DNA from: a virus
Taxonomy: Duplodnaviria > Heunggongvirae > Uroviricota > Caudoviricetes
IMG/VR virus record: IMGVR_UViG_2861084961_000001
Direction: 5' to 3' (one strand)
DNA: 64,000 nucleotides
The notes beneath the pieces are model-generated. The model saw only the letters and a program-made list of their open reading frames with translations, did not search any database and was not told where the DNA came from. The position numbers were made by a program, and so were the translations under genes. This document shows positions 6,724-38,078 of this stretch, piece after piece (positions within the stretch are counted from its first letter, which is position 1; each line of letters opens with the position of its first letter).

Positions 6724-7206
6724 ATGGTGATGGTTGTGAAAGCTGATTTGTCAAAAATCCCCTCTATTTCAGGAAATAATGGTTATTCACTTCGTTGTGA
6801 GGAAGTAAAGATAAACGGTGAGTCGGCATATTGCAGCTACTCCGTTTGCCAGCACACCATTCTTGCCTTCAAAGAAAACCGTCTTCCTCGAACTTCATTC
6901 CAGTCGTGCGCAACCGCTATCAAAGCAGGCAAATGCAAGGCGTTAAAAATGATGGTTGAAGAGATTCGTAAAGGAGAATCTCTGTATTTCGAAGATATGA
7001 CCGCGCTCATTAATGAGGTTGAAGAACGGAATAAACAAGCCAGAACTATAAAACGAAAACGTGACAGTGTAACGATTAATAGCATGGTTAAGAAGAGCGC
7101 CACATCACAAACAGCGATCACTGACGTGTATGCGGCGTTGCTTGAAGAAACAACAAAAGAAACACATGAGCAAATCGATCAACATATGGAGGCAAAACAA
7201 CAATGA
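6724..7206 (+). CDS. Hypothetical protein (160 aa)
   Basis: ORF; stop overlaps ligase start. Confidence 0.4.
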   Translation: MVMVVKADLSKIPSISGNNGYSLRCEEVKINGESAYCSYSVCQHTILAFKENRLPRTSFQSCATAIKAGKCKALKMMVEEIRKGESLYFEDMTALINEVEERNKQARTIKRKRDSVTINSMVKKSATSQTAITDVYAALLEETTKETHEQIDQHMEAKQQ

Positions 7207-8524
7207 AAAAGTTGATCGCACTTAAGCATAAGCTGGACGAAATGAAAGCTATGGGAACCAATGCAAAAAAAGAGGCATTGGCCAACATGGATGACTTCGA
7301 GCAAAGCATGGTTTCATTGATGCTCAACCCTTTCATCCGTTTTGGGGTAAAGAAATACAAAGTGGCAGAGCCGCTTAGTGAGTCCGTCCCAAGTGACGAA
7401 AAAGCCATTGATATACTGAATAAGCTGGCCTCTCGCGAGCTGACGGGGAACGCAGCAATAGCTGCTGTTGAGTCTATCGTGGCGTCAATGTGCGCCGATG
7501 GGCAGGACGTGTTCCGTCGTTTCCTCTTAAAAGACCCGAAAGCAGGTGTTGGGATTAGCCTATGCAACAAGGTTTTGAAAATCCCATTCCGAAATTCGAG
7601 GTGCAGCTGGCGTCACCGTATAAAGAAAAAGGCGACAAATACCCCTTCAAGCCAAATCCTAAAGCAAAATGGCCGATGATTGGCAGCCTTAAGCTCGATG
7701 GTTTGCGAGTAATTTGCGAGGTTATTGTTGACGAGGAAGAGGTGAACTTCCTTTCTCGTACTGGTAATCCAATCACGTCTCTCGATCACCTAAAGCCAGC
7801 CATGCTCGAATTAGGCAAACTTTCAGGCCACAAACACATCTTCTTCGATGGTGAAGGAACAGCCGGTTCATTTAACCAGTCCGTATCTGCATTGCGCAAA
7901 AAGAACGTGCAGGCAATTGGCGCTATTTATCATGTTTTCGACTTCTTCCTACCGGAATGGTGGGCACAGGCTAAATCCAAAGAGTATGCAAAGACAGGTA
8001 TGAAGCTGAAAGAGCGCCTGGCTATGCTCGTGGCGTTGTTCAAAAACGATCGCAGTGAAGACTATGCGCAAGACATTCACCTGCATCCGTTCTACATCAT
8101 CCATAGTCACGAAGACTTCATCGAACGCTTCATGAAACGCCTGGACGATAACGAAGAAGGGGAGATGGGCAAAGATCCGAACTCTGTTTACGAGTTTAAA
8201 CGTACCCGCAGCTGGTGGAAGTTAAAAGACGAAGATTCAGAAGATGGTGAAATTATCGACTTTGAGCCGGGTGACCCGGACTCTGGTTTTGCCAACACGC
8301 TTGGAAAAATTGTTATTCGCCTTGAAAACGGTGTGATTGTTCGTGCGAGCGGAATTAAGCATAAATATCTGGACGAGATCTGGAACAACAAAGAGAAGTA
8401 CCGTGGTCGTATTGTCGAGGTTCATTGTCACGAGAAAACGCCGGATGGCAGCTTACGCCACCCACGACTGAAATGGCCGCGTTGCTTACGCGATACAGAA
8501 GATCGAATCGGAGATAAAGAATGA
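7203..8524 (+). CDS. ATP-dependent DNA ligase (T4-type), reading frame broken at T-run 7573-7576
   Basis: N-terminal part LTGNAAIAAVE...GISLCNKV resembles T4 ligase N-domain; second frame carries adenylation motif SLKLDGLR (KxDG); inserting one T in the tttt run restores NKVFENPIPKF. Confidence 0.8.
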
Positions 8525-8700
8525 TGCTCGGCTGGATGATTGCATTTTTAGCAGTTGGTTTTTTTATCGGTATTGTGGTGATGTCCAGTTGCATTAATGA
8601 TTACATTAAAAACGGTGTTATAGAAAGACGCGGTCGTATTTATCGCATTGTAGAAATAACCAACACCGTGAAGGAGATTAAGGATGATCGTATTAAGTAA
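8521..8700 (+). CDS. Small single-pass membrane protein (59 aa), paralog of 8896..9048
   Basis: Hydrophobic N-terminus MMLGWMIAFLAVGFFIGIVV then RGRIYRIVEIT motif shared with next-but-one ORF. Confidence 0.4.
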   Translation: MMLGWMIAFLAVGFFIGIVVMSSCINDYIKNGVIERRGRIYRIVEITNTVKEIKDDRIK

Positions 8701-8899
8701 ACGGGAGAAGGAAACACTTCATGAAATCAGTAAGTGGCCGGAGTTCCCTGAGTACTGGAAGCCTAAAACGCGGGCTAAGTTAGAGCGGTTAGGGTTGGTT
8801 GCAAACGTTTCTGAAACGAAGTGTTCGGCCAACTACCAGTTAACTGATAAAGGGAAAGTATTGCTACAGCAATTAGTAGAATCAGGAGCGTTAAAATGA
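8684..8899 (+). CDS. Hypothetical small protein (71 aa)
   Basis: ORF with overlapping start/stop in small-gene cluster. Confidence 0.35.
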   Translation: MIVLSKREKETLHEISKWPEFPEYWKPKTRAKLERLGLVANVSETKCSANYQLTDKGKVLLQQLVESGALK

Positions 8900-9048
8900 T
8901 TCCATACATCTCATTAGCTTTTATGGGTGGCTTCCTTATCGGCTTCGGCATCTGTCGTGATTTAATTAAGCAGGAACTTAAAACCAAAACACTGTGCATC
9001 GGAAAGCGTGTGTATCGGGTAGTTCATGAAACAAAGGTTAGAAAATGA
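8896..9048 (+). CDS. Small single-pass membrane protein (50 aa), paralog of 8521..8700
   Basis: MIPYISLAFMGGFLIGFGIC then GKRVYRVVHET motif. Confidence 0.4.
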   Translation: MIPYISLAFMGGFLIGFGICRDLIKQELKTKTLCIGKRVYRVVHETKVRK

Positions 9049-9335
9049 GCAATTTAACTTCTTGGGACTGGTGGTTGGCCACCTATTTCTTAGCGGCCGG
9101 AGTCGCATTCGCCTTTTACGTAGGTCAGTTAGTCGTAAAACTGCTGCTGATTAAATTTGCCAGTCATAAACGTATCGATGATGGTCTGTGGCGTCTTGGC
9201 ACCCTGGTGGAAACTCGCTACGGGCAACTTAAGGAGAACGAAACCATTACTATCCAAGCGAAACGGTTCACTGCCACCATCACAAGAACACCTAGTCGTA
9301 GAGTGGCCTTGATCAAAAAAGTCACAACCGAATAA
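9045..9335 (+). CDS. Small membrane protein (96 aa)
   Basis: N-terminal hydrophobic segment WWLATYFLAAGVAFAFYVGQLVV. Confidence 0.4.
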   Translation: MSNLTSWDWWLATYFLAAGVAFAFYVGQLVVKLLLIKFASHKRIDDGLWRLGTLVETRYGQLKENETITIQAKRFTATITRTPSRRVALIKKVTTE

Positions 9336-10111
9336 AAATACAATAATAAGTATTTACTTACTTATCTTTTATGTATAAGATGACTTTGTTTTCGTTGAGA
9401 CGCGACTGTTTGAACTTAAATACAAGTGCAAACGAAGAAGTCTATCTGGCAGTAGCCTAATAAGCCAAACACCAGCGAGGTCAGTTTCCAGCCTCGTTAC
9501 CGAAATGGGACACACTGAGCGAGTGTGATTGCAGAACGCAGGAGGGAACATTCATGTTCCCTCCGATGAAGTAACAGAATGGGCGGTTGGTATATTTTCA
9601 ACTCCATATGACTCCCGGATTCTTAGCCACTGACCGCCCATCCTGTTACGTCATTTTGTTCAATTATGTCGTTTATACTGGGTTAAAAAGCGGCGACGTA
9701 GCCCGGCTGGTATGGTTAGCCAGCACACAACGTTGAGGCCATTACATTTTTATCAATTCTAAGGTTCTATTCACAGAGATACCGGCGAGCGTTGATATGT
9801 AACATGTTGGGCAAACATTCAATCGGAGTAGTGGCCTCAACGTTGTGAAGACAGGATTGTTGTGTAGGTTTAACCACTGTTGCCATTGGTGCCTGTTTTC
9901 ACAACAAATGATTCCATACATCACATTGTATAAATAACAAAGTAGGTGCTGTCCTCAGAAACATCATCTACTTAAAGATTTAGCCTTCTATTGAGCGAAG
10001 TCGAAAGCGTCTGGCACTAACGTAAAGTGCAAGTAGCGGTGCGTTTCCTGGCAGAAACTAACACCGCCGCGATTGGCACTGTTGAGTAATAAATACTGTC
10101 AGTGCTGAATT

Positions 10112-10186
10112 GATGGTGTAGCTCAGCGGTAGAGCAGTTGGCTGTTAACCAACTGGTCGGTGGTTCGAATCCACCCACCATCGCCA
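10112..10186 (+). tRNA. tRNA-Asn (anticodon GTT)
   Basis: Cloverleaf by eye: acceptor gatggtg/caccatc, anticodon loop ctGTTaa, T-loop ggttcgaat, CCA end. Confidence 0.8.
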
Positions 10187-10191
10187 ATTTA

Positions 10192-10278
10192 GGGGAGTTA
10201 GTCCGTAGAGGTAGCGGTGTAGACTGTAAATCTACTGTCATGGCGACTCGGGTGGTTCGACTCCATCACTCCCCACCA
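10192..10278 (+). tRNA. tRNA-Tyr (anticodon GTA), type II with long variable arm
   Basis: Acceptor ggggagt/actcccc, anticodon loop ctGTAaa, T-loop ggttcgact, CCA end. Confidence 0.75.
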
Positions 10279-10282
10279 AATT

Positions 10283-10358
10283 GCCGGTTTAGCTCAGTTG
10301 GTAGAGCGCCTGCCTTGTAAGCAGGATGTCAGCGGTTCGAGTCCGTTAACCGGCACCA
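10283..10358 (+). tRNA. tRNA-Thr (anticodon TGT)
   Basis: Acceptor gccggtt/aaccggc, D-arm agctcagttggtagagc, anticodon stem cctgc/gcagg with loop ctTGTaa, CCA end. Confidence 0.75.
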
Positions 10359-10582
10359 ATACAACGATAAGATCATTACGGTTAATCGTCGTTCATGTGC
10401 ACAATGACTGGTCGAAAGGTAGTGATCTTACCGTTGTGGTGGATTCGCAGACTGATGCGATAGCTTTCTTGGATGTTAGGGAAATGCGGCCGCAAATCTT
10501 CCCTTTCGCGAGCGGTGATCGTCCGTAGTCCTAATTGGCTGCACCGTATGCCGGAGATTCAGTACCGGCCACCACAACGGCC

Positions 10583-10845: not shown

Positions 10846-11619
10846 TTAATGATTGCCTAGATATGATTTTAGTTCTTCTTTAATGATTAGTGAGTATTCT
10901 AAAATATCACTTAGTAAAAATTTTGCTCTGTTAAAATAACCACCAAAAGAACCAAAAATTTCAGATGGTCTTTCTAAGAGCATTACAATATCATCTTCTT
11001 GCACTTTAGCAATGTAACTTCTAACAGCTCTTTCTCCAATAACTCTTTTCTTACCGTTTATTTCAGATTCATCTAAAACCTTATTTATAAATTTTTCTGT
11101 ATCATTGAATCGTCCACTATTGTGTACTATTGTATGTCTTAGTAGTTCAATTAGCTTGATGTTAAAGCGATAGTTTTTACCAATCTTGTTGTTTATTTCT
11201 ATCTCTTTGAAGCCAGGTATTTTATTTCTGAAAATTTTAATTATTTTTTTCGATGGGTTACTTTTTGCTTTTAATAATTTGTAATAAACTTCCCCTTTCC
11301 CAATGTCATCATCTTCAACCTTACCAAAATAACTTGAGGACCAGAAATCATTTCGAACACATACAGTATAGACATATATTGCCTCAATATAGTCTTCCAG
11401 TAACTCATAGGCTTCAGTAATAACCCACTGATATTGTTTATTTTTCAAAACATTACACAATCTTATCTTTTCTTCTAAATCAATGGCGCTGTTACCTATC
11501 TCTAATGTTGAACCTGTATATGGGTTTGAACATAAATGGCGAGCTAACGTTGTGCCACACTTAATCTTAATAGTTTCATTAATATTAATAATAGTATCTG
11601 GATTCTGTGCATACTCCAC
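10846..11619 (-). CDS. AT-rich hypothetical protein (257 aa), possible HEPN/Abi-like
   Basis: Clean minus-strand ORF with GGAG RBS; markedly AT-rich compared with flanks; contains R-x4-H motif (LLRHTIVHNSGR). Confidence 0.5.
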   Translation of the reverse strand: MEYAQNPDTIININETIKIKCGTTLARHLCSNPYTGSTLEIGNSAIDLEEKIRLCNVLKNKQYQWVITEAYELLEDYIEAIYVYTVCVRNDFWSSSYFGKVEDDDIGKGEVYYKLLKAKSNPSKKIIKIFRNKIPGFKEIEINNKIGKNYRFNIKLIELLRHTIVHNSGRFNDTEKFINKVLDESEINGKKRVIGERAVRSYIAKVQEDDIVMLLERPSEIFGSFGGYFNRAKFLLSDILEYSLIIKEELKSYLGNH

Positions 11620-37346: not shown

Positions 37347-38078
37347 ATTAAGCCGCACGCAGTTTTTGCAGGTATTTGCAGTGATGCAGTCGATAAAACT
37401 GATCAATGGGCATACTTCCAATGGTGCGGCTCCACGTATTCTGTGGGGCAGCAACAATATTGACGGAGTACAATTCGCCGCGTTGCTTGGTCTAATATCC
37501 GAGACACCATTGATGCAAAGTTTGAAATCACTACCACCTGGATGTATTGCGCCGATCCTGATTAATCCTTTTGTTGAGGGGGATATCTTCCCAACGTCGG
37601 GCCTGGGTTTATTGCATCCCATGAAACTGAAGATCTTAACATTAATAGCGAAGGGTTCTTTGGGGGAATGGGTGCGCATCACTGTATGGCTTTCACGAAC
37701 CTTATTCGACTTGCCAATAAGCGGGTGGATAGTTTGGCATCTCCAGGTGATGCTTTTACTGATTTCCTTATCCAAAGGAGGGATAAAAAGTACAGTGCGG
37801 ACAAACTACAGTTTATTGGTAAGTATGGAGAAATGGTAGAAATCGAACTTCAGCTCCCTCATGTTTTAGCAAACGATAGTGCAGACAGTCGGAGGCTGTT
37901 GGGCATCATGCGTCATTTCATAGCAAGTGGCGTTAAACATGCCGTAGATAAACGTGTCACGCAGGAAAATGAGTATTCAGACTTTGCAAACTATCCCCAA
38001 CCAACGTTGCAAACGGCAATAATAGCCAATTCGTTGGAGGCGAGATTATTGGAAAACCCTATATGGGGAACATGGTAA
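37336..38078 (+). CDS. Hypothetical protein (two overlapping ORFs in -1 relation)
   Basis: ORFs 37336..37839 and 37668..38078; first frame looks partly non-protein-like, true frame path uncertain. Confidence 0.3.

What the first reader, a model, noticed from the sequence alone, without database searches (positions are those of the whole stretch)
8521..9335. Tandem paralogous small single-TM proteins downstream of the ligase
Two unannotated short ORFs (8521-8700 and 8896-9048, both below the 60 aa ORF-track cutoff) each encode an N-terminal transmembrane helix followed by a shared motif: RGRIYRIVEIT in the first, KRVYRVVHET in the second. A third membrane protein follows at 9045-9335. Small duplicated membrane proteins in phages often act in superinfection exclusion, lysis regulation or host-membrane modulation.
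Basis: seen in the sequence. Interest (0 to 1): 0.45.

Follow-up and report, generated by a model that had tools for sequence, protein, structure and literature searches.

The report
Paralogous small membrane proteins after ligase
Two real, related mini-genes for single-pass membrane proteins sit with a third membrane protein and a small DNA-binding-like protein at the end of the DNA-replication operon of an SSU5-type phage-plasmid; they are conserved and under selection, but their function is still unknown.

Summary
The window is an SSU5-like phage-plasmid, about 98% identical to Escherichia phages CMS-2020a and Cyrano.

**What is there**
- ORF A (8521-8700, 59 aa) and ORF C (8896-9048, 50 aa) are genuine genes (dN/dS 0.17 and 0.26).
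- They are true paralogues. Both have an N-terminal TM helix with a near-invariant GxxxG. Exactly 22 residues later comes R-[IV]-Y-R-[IV]-V-x-x-T, the most constrained part of both proteins (dN/dS about 0.065).
- They are not strictly tandem. Gene B (8684-8899, a winged-helix-like protein) lies between them.
- Gene D (9045-9335) is an unrelated bitopic protein and follows C.
- All four genes overlap start-to-stop with each other and with the ligase.

**Distribution**
- The cassette is found only in SSU5-type phage-plasmids of Enterobacterales, in roughly 650 PLSDB plasmids.
- C-D is the conserved core.
- A is precisely deleted in some close relatives, between two 16-nt direct repeats.

**Function**
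- Published Cyrano RNA-seq shows the genes silent in lysogeny.
- A canonical lysis cassette lies elsewhere.
- Prophage-type superinfection exclusion and lysis roles are therefore disfavoured.
- My best guess, at low confidence, is a lytic-phase inner-membrane platform that oligomerises through GxxxG and presents a basic cytoplasmic motif.

All four proteins already sit in function-less PHROG families, so interest is modest.

Separately, the 780-bp "non-coding" stretch just downstream looks like an undescribed large structured RNA.

The parts
8510..8525 (+). End of the ligase gene and start of A. It contains the SD GGAG (8510-8513), a 7-nt spacer and an ATGA stop/start overlap. It is also copy 1 of a 16-nt imperfect direct repeat, GGAGATAAAGAATGAT.
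   Evidence: Read from the sequence. The repeat and the A-less junction are shown.
8521..8700 (+). Gene A: a 59-aa bitopic membrane protein, full-length member of phrog_4381, paralogue of C.
   Evidence: ORF. PHROG match E = 5e-39. 34 homologues, on contigs of up to about 100-132 kb in Enterobacterales. dN/dS 0.17.
8539..8595 (+). TM helix of A (residues 7-25), containing G13xxxG17.
   Evidence: Kyte-Doolittle score 2.55. G13 and G17 are near-invariant across both families. AF2 predicts a helix with pLDDT 83-87 over residues 1-20.
8626..8661 (+). Conserved tail motif of A, RRGRIYRIVEIT (residues 36-47). The tail is predicted to be cytoplasmic.
   Evidence: Invariant or near-invariant columns. 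Motif dN/dS 0.064.
8673..8688 (+). Copy 2 of the direct repeat, GGAGATTAAGGATGAT, 163 nt after copy 1. It also holds the SD and start codon of B, inside the 3' end of A.
   Evidence: Recombination between the two copies reproduces exactly the junction seen in 13 A-less loci.
8684..8899 (+). Gene B: a 71-aa soluble, probably winged-helix protein, member of phrog_4054. It overlaps A by 17 nt and C by 4 nt.
   Evidence: PHROG match E = 3.5e-45. No hydrophobic segment. Sub-threshold winged-helix hits: HTH_45 in 10 of 11 members, the MarR wing, and the Csa3 C-terminus at E = 1e-3. dN/dS 0.13.
8896..9048 (+). Gene C: a 50-aa bitopic membrane protein, member of phrog_6302, paralogue of A.
   Evidence: ORF. 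PHROG match E = 8e-37. 30 homologues. dN/dS 0.26 overall and 0.15 in the tail.
8899..8955 (+). TM helix of C (residues 2-20), containing G12xxxG16.
   Evidence: Kyte-Doolittle score 1.84. It aligns without gaps to G13xxxG17 of A.
8998..9033 (+). Conserved tail motif of C, IGKRVYRVVHET (residues 35-46). The tail is predicted to be cytoplasmic.
   Evidence: K37-E45 (KRVYRVVHE) is invariant or near-invariant across 19 sequences. Motif dN/dS 0.065.
9045..9335 (+). Gene D: a 96-aa bitopic membrane protein, member of phrog_4507, unrelated to A and C. NCBI carries it under the spurious name 'C-type natriuretic protein'.
   Evidence: PHROG match E = 8.5e-59. Homologues. hhalign finds no relation to A or C. 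In the TM, G19 and G27 are invariant and A23 near-invariant; FASHKRIDDGLWRLG is almost entirely invariant. dN/dS 0.15.
9096..9152 (+). TM helix of D (residues 18-36).
   Evidence: Kyte-Doolittle score 2.00. No K or R before the helix and 13 K+R after it.

Best explanation
**Shown**
- A and C are paralogous small inner-membrane proteins.
- Together with B (a small winged-helix-like protein) and D (an unrelated bitopic protein) they form the translationally coupled 3' tail of the helicase-primase-ligase operon of SSU5-type phage-plasmids.
- The C-D pair is the conserved core. A, and A-B together, are accessory.

**Inferred**
- Each protein inserts N-out/C-in. There are no K or R residues before the TM and 9-13 after it.
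- The near-invariant small-xxx-small motifs (GxxxG in A and C, GxxxAxxxG in D) drive packing of the TM helices into homo- or hetero-oligomers.
- The function resides in the short basic cytoplasmic tail, centred on R-[IV]-Y-R-[IV]-V-x-x-T, which docks a cytoplasmic partner.
- The genes are silent in lysogeny and are transcribed with the replication genes, so they act during lytic development.
- The most likely role is a membrane platform that tethers or organises the phage's replication and recombination machinery, or its DNA, at the inner membrane. This may work together with B, in the manner of phi29 p16.7 and p1.

The anatomy and evolution are well supported, at about 0.9. The specific tethering role is a weak inference, at about 0.25-0.3.
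For: **Genes are real**
- dN/dS is 0.13-0.26 for all four genes and 0.064-0.065 for the shared motif.

**A and C are paralogues**
- The joint alignment is gapless. M2, G13, G17, R39, Y41, R42, V44 and T47 are conserved across both families.
- hhalign gives E = 7e-6.
- They are reciprocal best hits within the window.
- Segment shuffles give p of about 1e-3 and 5e-5.
- Linking intermediates exist, and one intermediate hits both A and C in the same genomes.

**Operon structure**
- ATGA or 17-nt overlaps at every junction, and an SD with a 7-nt spacer before every start.
- No sigma-70-like promoter on the + strand between 5500 and 10700.

**Synteny with the ligase holds in distant lineages**
- SSU5.
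- Klebsiella pKpn-type: ligase-A-B-C-D.
- Cronobacter: ligase, one C-like gene, then D.

**Topology**
- Hydropathy and charge distribution.

**Timing**
- Cyrano ligase, B, C and D give 5-8 normalised reads in the LB lysogen (floor 4.99), against 96 for the repressor. They are not on the moron list (PMC9928086).

**Lysis cassette is elsewhere**
-.

**Precedent for the proposed role**
- phi29 p16.7 and p1 are membrane proteins proposed to anchor viral DNA replication (PMC4974454).
Against: - No experiment or homology links these proteins to replication. Gene neighbourhood is the only functional clue, and small accessory genes are often scattered among phage early genes.
- A is cleanly lost in 13 of about 78 related loci, so at least A is dispensable.
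- One lineage lacks both A and B, so B cannot be an obligatory partner.
- AF2 models are low-confidence and say nothing about the tail: A has pLDDT 70 and is one long helix; D has pLDDT 63.
- No hit in Pfam, NCBIfam, PADLOC or PDB sequences supports any function for A, C or D.
- Topology rests on the positive-inside rule alone.
- The RNA-seq is from a lysogen, not from an induction time course. Lytic-phase expression is inferred, not observed.
Confidence: 0.3

Rival explanations
1. Lytic-phase superinfection exclusion, or modulation of a host inner-membrane protein. Made early after induction or infection, the small proteins would bind a host or phage membrane component through their GxxxG helices. 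They would block DNA entry by a second phage, or retune a transporter or sensor, as T4 Imm/Sp or the bacterial AcrZ/MgrB-type small proteins do.
For: - The architecture matches that of small regulatory membrane proteins: about 50 aa, one TM, and a conserved helix-packing motif. Small membrane proteins such as AcrZ and KdpF act by binding larger membrane complexes (PMC12648545).
- Natural loss of A and the duplicated state fit an accessory, arms-race type function.
- From memory: T4 imm and sp also lie among early replication genes.
Against: - The most constrained part is the predicted cytoplasmic tail, not the TM. In C, dN/dS is 0.56 in the TM and 0.065 in the motif. That fits poorly with a target reached purely inside the membrane or in the periplasm.
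- The family is strictly conserved in position and sequence across the whole SSU5 supercommunity. Exclusion genes usually diversify or turn over.
- No PADLOC hit for A, C or D.
Confidence: 0.25
2. Prophage-expressed superinfection exclusion or lysogenic conversion: moron-type genes expressed from the resident plasmid-prophage.
Against: - In LF82 lysogens, the Cyrano orthologues are at or near the detection floor. C has 0 FPKM in both LB replicates. The genes are absent from the authors' moron list, whereas the repressor, the toxin-antitoxin genes and CYRAN_43 are clearly expressed (PMC9928086).
- The genes are embedded in, and translationally coupled to, the replication operon.
Confidence: 0.05
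3. Lysis-timing proteins (holin, antiholin or pinholin-like). These would be small TM proteins with charged C-termini that depolarise the membrane or regulate the holin.
For: - The generic holin-like architecture is present: one TM, glycine-zipper-like motifs and a basic C-terminus.
- The TM of D gives a weak hit to holin family phrog_2359, E = 0.019, residues 8-34 only.
Against: - A complete holin-endolysin-Rz-Rz1 cassette lies elsewhere, after the tail genes (CYRAN_22-25).
- These genes are coupled to the ligase in the replication operon.
- The PHROG hit covers only the hydrophobic helix and is not significant.
Confidence: 0.1
4. Hok/TisB-like small membrane toxins that serve plasmid addiction.
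For: The proteins are about 50 aa with an N-terminal TM, are carried on a plasmid-prophage, and the element carries several toxin-antitoxin systems.
Against: - No match to Hok/Gef or any toxin family at E <= 1.
- There is no N-terminal positive charge, the opposite of what I recall (from memory) for Hok.
- The genes are co-translated within a long operon rather than forming a stand-alone cassette regulated by an antisense RNA.
- The strongest constraint is on the soluble tail.
- The genes are silent in lysogeny.
Confidence: 0.03
5. Chance ORFs, with motif similarity due to chance or composition.
For: The ORFs are short, TM segments inflate similarity scores, and the A-C profile scores are modest (12-16 bits).
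Against: - Purifying selection acts on both ORFs.
- Full-length PHROG membership.
- Conservation in more than 600 plasmids.
- Shuffle controls, the negative control with D, and linking intermediates.
Confidence: 0.01

Closest known systems
PHROG families phrog_4381 (A), phrog_6302 (C), phrog_4054 (B) and phrog_4507 (D); SSU5 genes SSU5_045 to SSU5_048
   Same: All four are full-length, highly significant members (E 5e-39, 8e-37, 3.5e-45 and 8.5e-59). The same four genes sit in the same order after the ligase in SSU5.
   Different: All four families are labelled 'unknown function'. PHROGs keeps A and C in separate families, whereas here they prove to be one superfamily. The NCBI name for D, 'C-type natriuretic protein', is an annotation artefact with no support.
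phi29 p16.7 and p1 (membrane organisers of phage DNA replication)
   Same: p16.7 and p1 are small early phage membrane proteins. p16.7 is an integral membrane protein that interacts with the terminal protein and ssDNA, and both are proposed to anchor replication at the membrane (PMC4974454).
   Different: There is no sequence similarity. From memory, p16.7 is about 130 aa with a coiled coil and a defined DNA-binding domain, and belongs to a protein-primed Gram-positive phage. DNA or replisome binding by A, C or D is untested.
T4 Imm and Sp (superinfection exclusion proteins of a virulent phage)
   Same: These are small early membrane proteins encoded among replication genes (from memory).
   Different: There is no homology. 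From memory, Imm has two TM segments and Sp acts in the periplasm. Here the conserved part is predicted to be cytoplasmic.
Bacterial small regulatory membrane proteins (AcrZ, KdpF, MgrB type)
   Same: They are about 30-50 aa with a single TM and act by binding larger membrane complexes (PMC12648545). A and C have the same size and, by prediction, the same N-out/C-in layout.
   Different: There is no homology. A and C are phage-encoded and carry an extra, strongly conserved, basic 12-residue tail motif.
Hok/Gef type I toxins
   Same: About 50 aa with an N-terminal TM, and plasmid-borne.
   Different: No Pfam match at E <= 1. The charge distribution is opposite, which implies the opposite topology. 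The genetic organisation is different.

Membership tests
phrog_4381 / phrog_6302 (uncharacterised phage small proteins) | Full-length match to the family HMM | tested here: met
   A matches residues 1-59 of 59 at E = 5.2e-39. C matches 1-50 of 50 at E = 8e-37.
A/C superfamily (defined here) | An N-terminal TM with GxxxG, then R-[IV]-Y-[RK]-[IV]-V-x-x-T exactly 22 residues after the second Gly | tested here: met
   The joint alignment of 20 sequences has no gaps between the two features. All divergent members P0107, P0108, P0112, P0117-P0119 and P0124 keep GxxxG; P0124 has a degenerate form of the tail motif (KLYKVLESE).
A/C superfamily (defined here) | D also belongs | tested here: not met
   hhalign of D against A gives probability 0.5%, and D against C gives 1.5%.
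Superinfection-exclusion / moron genes of temperate phages | Expressed from the prophage during lysogeny | tested here: not met
   Cyrano B, C and D give 6.4, 5.0 and 7.6 normalised reads (floor 4.99), against 96 for the repressor. They are not on the moron list (PMC9928086 S1 Table). Gene A is not annotated in that data set.
Superinfection-exclusion / moron genes of temperate phages | Confers exclusion of an incoming phage | not testable with these tools
   This needs plating or DNA-entry assays.
Holin / antiholin | Encoded in the lysis cassette next to the endolysin and spanins | tested here: not met
   In Cyrano, the holin, endolysin, Rz and Rz1 are CYRAN_22-25 at 26.7-28.2 kb, and the small genes are at 37.4-38.2 kb after the ligase.
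Holin / antiholin | Significant match to a holin family | tested here: not met
   The only hit is D residues 8-34 against phrog_2359 at E = 0.019. Pfam gives nothing.
Hok/Gef type I toxin (PF01848) | Sequence match to the family | tested here: not met
   No such hit at E <= 1 in Pfam or NCBIfam.
phi29 p16.7-like replication organiser | N-terminal TM anchor with a cytoplasmic C-terminal part, encoded with early/replication genes | tested here: met
   Hydropathy and charge. Operon context. Topology is predicted only.
phi29 p16.7-like replication organiser | The C-terminal domain binds DNA or replication proteins; loss impairs membrane-associated replication | not testable with these tools
   There is no homology to transfer from. 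This needs EMSA, pull-downs and deletion phenotypes.
Winged-helix DNA-binding proteins (gene B) | Match to a winged-helix family above its curated threshold | tested here: inconclusive
   Only sub-threshold but consistent hits: HTH_45 in 10 of 11 members (best E 0.0043), HTH_27, PadR, the MarR 2rdp wing, and the Csa3 C-terminus at E = 0.0011.

The most novel reading that the evidence does not exclude
A, C and D form a previously unrecognised phage-encoded inner-membrane scaffold. It is held together by GxxxG and glycine-zipper contacts. Its cytoplasmic R-phi-Y-R-phi-V hairpins capture DNA, the winged-helix protein B, or the T4-like replisome of SSU5-type phage-plasmids. This would be a Gram-negative counterpart of phi29 p16.7, built from a new motif and required for efficient lytic replication.
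Probability: 0.12. Interest if true: 0.6.

Novelty: new member of a known kind. Interest (0 to 1): 0.3.

Why it matters
SSU5-type phage-plasmids are common in clinical Klebsiella, E. coli, Enterobacter and Salmonella. Roughly 650 PLSDB plasmids carry this cassette.

The cassette is a strictly conserved, strongly selected set of three tiny membrane proteins and a mini winged-helix protein, welded to the replication operon. That makes it a clear candidate for an undescribed step in the lytic programme, such as membrane organisation of replication, early exclusion or host takeover.

Three results make it easy to test:
- A and C form one superfamily with a defined motif (GxxxG followed by RVYRVV).
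- C-D is the conserved core.
- A is naturally dispensable.

As it stands, this is an uncharacterised small-protein family rather than a surprise.

Tried and rejected
**Structure prediction**
- AF2 on A with a 23-sequence alignment gave one long helix, pLDDT 70, with the tail at 58-63.
- AF2 on D gave a helix plus a small hairpin, pLDDT 63.
- Both models are too poor for fold searches, so none were run.

**Family and structure libraries**
- Pfam, NCBIfam, PADLOC and PDB-sequence searches gave nothing meaningful for A, C or D.
- PDB search with B alone gave nothing.

**Wider searches**
- The genome-contig scan with the joint motif confirmed only two Kluyvera loci. Confirmation uses the first (A) sequence, so the scan was uninformative about C-type genes.
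- I looked for the cassette in Yersinia pestis CO92 pMT1 to see whether it survives in a degenerate phage-plasmid. pMT1 has no ligase and none of A-D, only a fragment of the downstream RNA.
- A literature search for 'C-type natriuretic protein' found nothing relevant to the phage protein.

**Ideas considered and dropped**
- D as a third paralogue, based on KRIDDGLWRLG resembling KRVYRVV. Rejected by hhalign.
- Similarity to Hok. No family match and opposite charge layout.
Full report
**Context.** The window is an SSU5-type phage-plasmid. Region 7000-10500 is 97.9% identical to Escherichia phage CMS-2020a, 97.9% to phage-plasmid Cyrano of E. coli LF82, and 79% to Salmonella phage SSU5. In Cyrano and SSU5 the locus reads helicase, primase, two hypothetical genes, DNA ligase, small genes, about 0.8 kb without genes, then tRNAs. 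SSU5 annotates four small genes after the ligase, SSU5_045 to SSU5_048, of 58, 70, 50 and 101 aa. Cyrano annotates three and misses the first.

**The observation.**
- A, 8521-8700, 59 aa.
- C, 8896-9048, 50 aa.
- D, 9045-9335, 96 aa.

Every junction is an overlap:
- ligase stop and A start share ATGA;
- A and B overlap by 17 nt;
- B and C share ATGA;
- C and D share ATGA.

Each start is preceded by a Shine-Dalgarno sequence with a 7-nt spacer. No sigma-70-like promoter was found on the + strand between 5500 and 10700. The four genes therefore look like the co-translated tail of the replication operon.

**Are they genes?** Yes. Each is a full-length member of its own PHROG family, all labelled unknown function: 4381, 4054, 6302 and 4507, with E values from 1e-37 to 1e-59. 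I collected 80 related loci from IMG/VR and located the genes with HMMs. Pooled Nei-Gojobori estimates over 32-52 distinct nucleotide sequences give these dN/dS values:

| Gene | dN/dS |
|---|---|
| A | 0.17 |
| B | 0.13 |
| C | 0.26 |
| D | 0.15 |

Mean synonymous differences are 0.4-0.6 per site. The twelve codons of the shared motif are the most constrained part of both A (0.064) and C (0.065). The TM of C is relaxed (0.56).

**Are A and C paralogues?** Yes.
- BLASTP gives 31% identity over 45 residues, E = 6e-5.
- Family alignments compared by hhalign align end to end over 49 columns, E = 7e-6, probability 84%.
- D is also a small TM protein and serves as a negative control. It gives probabilities of 0.5% and 1.5%.
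- Against all 1,489 six-frame ORF pieces of the window, the A profile's best non-self hit is C (E 0.017, next 1.2). The C profile's best non-self hit is A (E 0.001, next 0.65).
- Shuffling the TM and tail segments separately reaches the real score in 20 of 20,000 and 1 of 20,000 trials.
- A joint MAFFT alignment of ten A-type and ten C-type sequences needs no internal gap, apart from one insertion in a single sequence. M2, G13, G17, R39, Y41, R42, V44 and T47 are conserved across both families.

The shared signature is therefore a GxxxG in the TM helix followed, exactly 22 residues after the second glycine, by R-[IV]-Y-R-[IV]-V-x-x-T. The regex R[IV]Y[RK][IV]V occurs only twice in the six-frame translation of the window, in A and C. 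Shuffled windows give 0.04 hits.

A profile search of 1.84 billion representative proteins found only 24 clusters at E <= 1e-3. All are short, 32-78 aa. Several bridge the two families, for example:
- P0112: MMIPYI...NGFITLRRRVYRVVEIT
- P0108: ...KSGIVRFGNRVYRVVHET

P0112 hits both the A and the C gene in the same genomes. Those with traceable sources lie on contigs of about 110 kb from Klebsiella or Raoultella.

**Anatomy of the proteins.**

| Protein | Best 19-residue hydropathy window | Score | K+R before TM | K+R after TM |
|---|---|---|---|---|
| A | 7-25 | 2.55 | 0 | 9 |
| C | 2-20 | 1.84 | 0 | 10 |
| D | 18-36 | 2.00 | 0 | 13 |
| B | 36-54 | 0.17 (no TM) | not applicable | not applicable |

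By the positive-inside rule all three membrane proteins are N-out/C-in. This is an inference. D has its own invariant features: G19, near-invariant A23, and G27 spaced four residues apart in the TM, followed by FASHKRIDDGLWRLG.

B gives only sub-threshold but very consistent winged-helix matches: HTH_45 in 10 of 11 homologues, HTH_27, PadR, the wing of MarR 2rdp, and the C-terminal domain of Csa3.

AF2 was uninformative. A came out as a single helix with pLDDT 70, and D as a helix plus a hairpin with pLDDT 63. The two residues before R-phi-Y-R are often Gly or Asn (RG, GK, GN, KG), and hydrophobic residues alternate afterwards. Both features would also fit a beta-hairpin, so this remains open.

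**Distribution and evolution.** tblastn finds the family in about 650-680 PLSDB plasmids. Nearly all are non-mobilizable; the records listed are mostly 100-140 kb. Hosts are Klebsiella, Escherichia, Enterobacter, Salmonella, Yersinia, Citrobacter, Cronobacter and Shigella. The position after the ligase is kept in distant lineages:
- A Klebsiella pKpn-type plasmid has ligase-A-B-C-D, with C unannotated and D barely recognisable.
- A Cronobacter plasmid has ligase, a single C-like gene and D, with no A or B.

C-D is therefore the core.

In 13 of about 78 loci, all in the closest E. coli clade, A is missing exactly. The ligase then runs straight into B, with the junction GGAGATAAAGAATGAT|CGTATTAAGT. 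This is what recombination would produce between two 16-nt imperfect direct repeats, at 8510-8525 and 8673-8688, 163 nt apart. A-less and A-containing loci are interspersed when clustered on flanking sequence. The deletion is therefore either recurrent or spread by recombination. Either way A is dispensable, perhaps because C is redundant with it.

**Function.** Nothing in Pfam, NCBIfam, PADLOC or PDB sequences informs on A, C or D. Two outside facts narrow the options.

- *Expression in lysogeny.* RNA-seq of LF82 lysogens (PMC9928086, S1 Table) shows the Cyrano ligase, B, C and D at 5.9, 6.4, 5.0 and 7.6 normalised reads. The floor is 4.99, and C is at zero FPKM in both LB replicates. The repressor gives 96 and the moron CYRAN_43 about 7,000. 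The authors' moron list does not include these genes. A prophage-expressed exclusion or conversion function is therefore unlikely.
- *Lysis genes.* Cyrano has a canonical holin-endolysin-Rz-Rz1 cassette after the tail genes, about 10 kb upstream. A core lysis role is therefore unlikely. The only holin-like signal is a non-significant match of D's TM.

What remains is a lytic-phase role at the cytoplasmic face of the inner membrane. My preferred reading is that the proteins oligomerise through their small-xxx-small motifs and use the basic tail motif to hold a cytoplasmic partner. Given the unbroken coupling to the helicase-primase-ligase operon and the companion winged-helix protein, the most likely partner is the replication machinery or the DNA. 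phi29 p16.7 and p1 are the proposed precedent (PMC4974454). This rests on neighbourhood alone, and I give it about 0.3.

A lytic-phase exclusion or host-protein-modulating role is nearly as likely, at about 0.25. That would resemble T4 Imm/Sp (from memory), or the AcrZ-like small proteins reviewed in PMC12648545.

**Verdict.** The genes are already catalogued as function-less families and are restricted to one group of phage-plasmids. No evidence points to an unusual mechanism. Interest is modest.

**Side observations.**
- The 780 bp between D and tRNA-Asn is more conserved than the neighbouring coding DNA.
- That region begins with a conserved promoter-like element.
- It folds far better than shuffles do, z = -7.1 over 576 nt.
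- RNAalifold predicts 124 pairs, 14 of them with compensatory changes and many invariant G-U pairs on the + strand.
- It matches no Rfam family.
- Its position next to a phage tRNA island recalls ROOL and GOLLD (PMC12286853).
- The window's ligase carries a 1-nt deletion in a T5 run that no other locus has.

Noticed in passing
window 9346-9960 (+), between gene D and tRNA-Asn: Candidate undescribed large structured RNA of about 570-600 nt.
- The 'non-coding' stretch is 74-80% identical in lineages where synonymous sites differ by about 50%, and it contains long invariant blocks.
- It begins with a conserved promoter-like element, ATAAGTATTTACTTACTTATC...TATGTATAAGAT.
- It has long inverted repeats.
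- The MFE z-score is -7.1.
- RNAalifold gives 124 pairs, 14 with compensatory changes, plus many invariant G-U pairs on the + strand.
- Rfam gives only 14-bit tmRNA-like noise.
- Its position beside a phage tRNA island recalls ROOL and GOLLD (PMC12286853).
   Followed up: partly
window 7572-7576 (ligase, ORFs 7203-7679 and 7562-8524): The DNA ligase is split by a 1-nt deletion in a T5 run (TTTTT to TTTT). Cyrano, SSU5 and all but two of the other ~80 related loci (those two lie at ends of the fetched stretches) have a single ORF of about 442-451 codons. This is either a homopolymer sequencing error or a recent pseudogene.
   Followed up: partly
L001 4523-4699 (Cyrano OV696614, about 37427-37603): Gene A is present and intact in Cyrano but is not annotated there. 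In Klebsiella plasmid NZ_CP056375 the C and D orthologues are not in PLSDB's (incomplete) gene table.
   Followed up: yes
L090 31056-31322 (Y. pestis CO92 pMT1, about 81056-81322, next to caf1R): pMT1 has no ligase and none of genes A-D. It keeps a fragment of about 270 nt, 75% identical, of the candidate structured RNA (window 9575-9849), directly beside the F1 capsule operon.
   Followed up: no
window 10846-11619 (-) and tRNA-Tyr at 10192-10278: Compared with Cyrano, the window carries two extras.
- An additional tRNA-Tyr within the tRNA island.
- A 257-aa ORF on the minus strand between tRNA-Ser and the glutaredoxin gene. It has no Pfam or PADLOC match. It may be a moron or defence gene in a variable spot.
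   Followed up: partly
Cyrano CYRAN_37-39 in PMC9928086 S1 Table: In the non-LB conditions of that data set (columns B6 and MB1), B, C and D read about 2-4 times higher than the ligase just upstream. This could mean a weak internal promoter or differential mRNA stability. No promoter was predicted.
   Followed up: no
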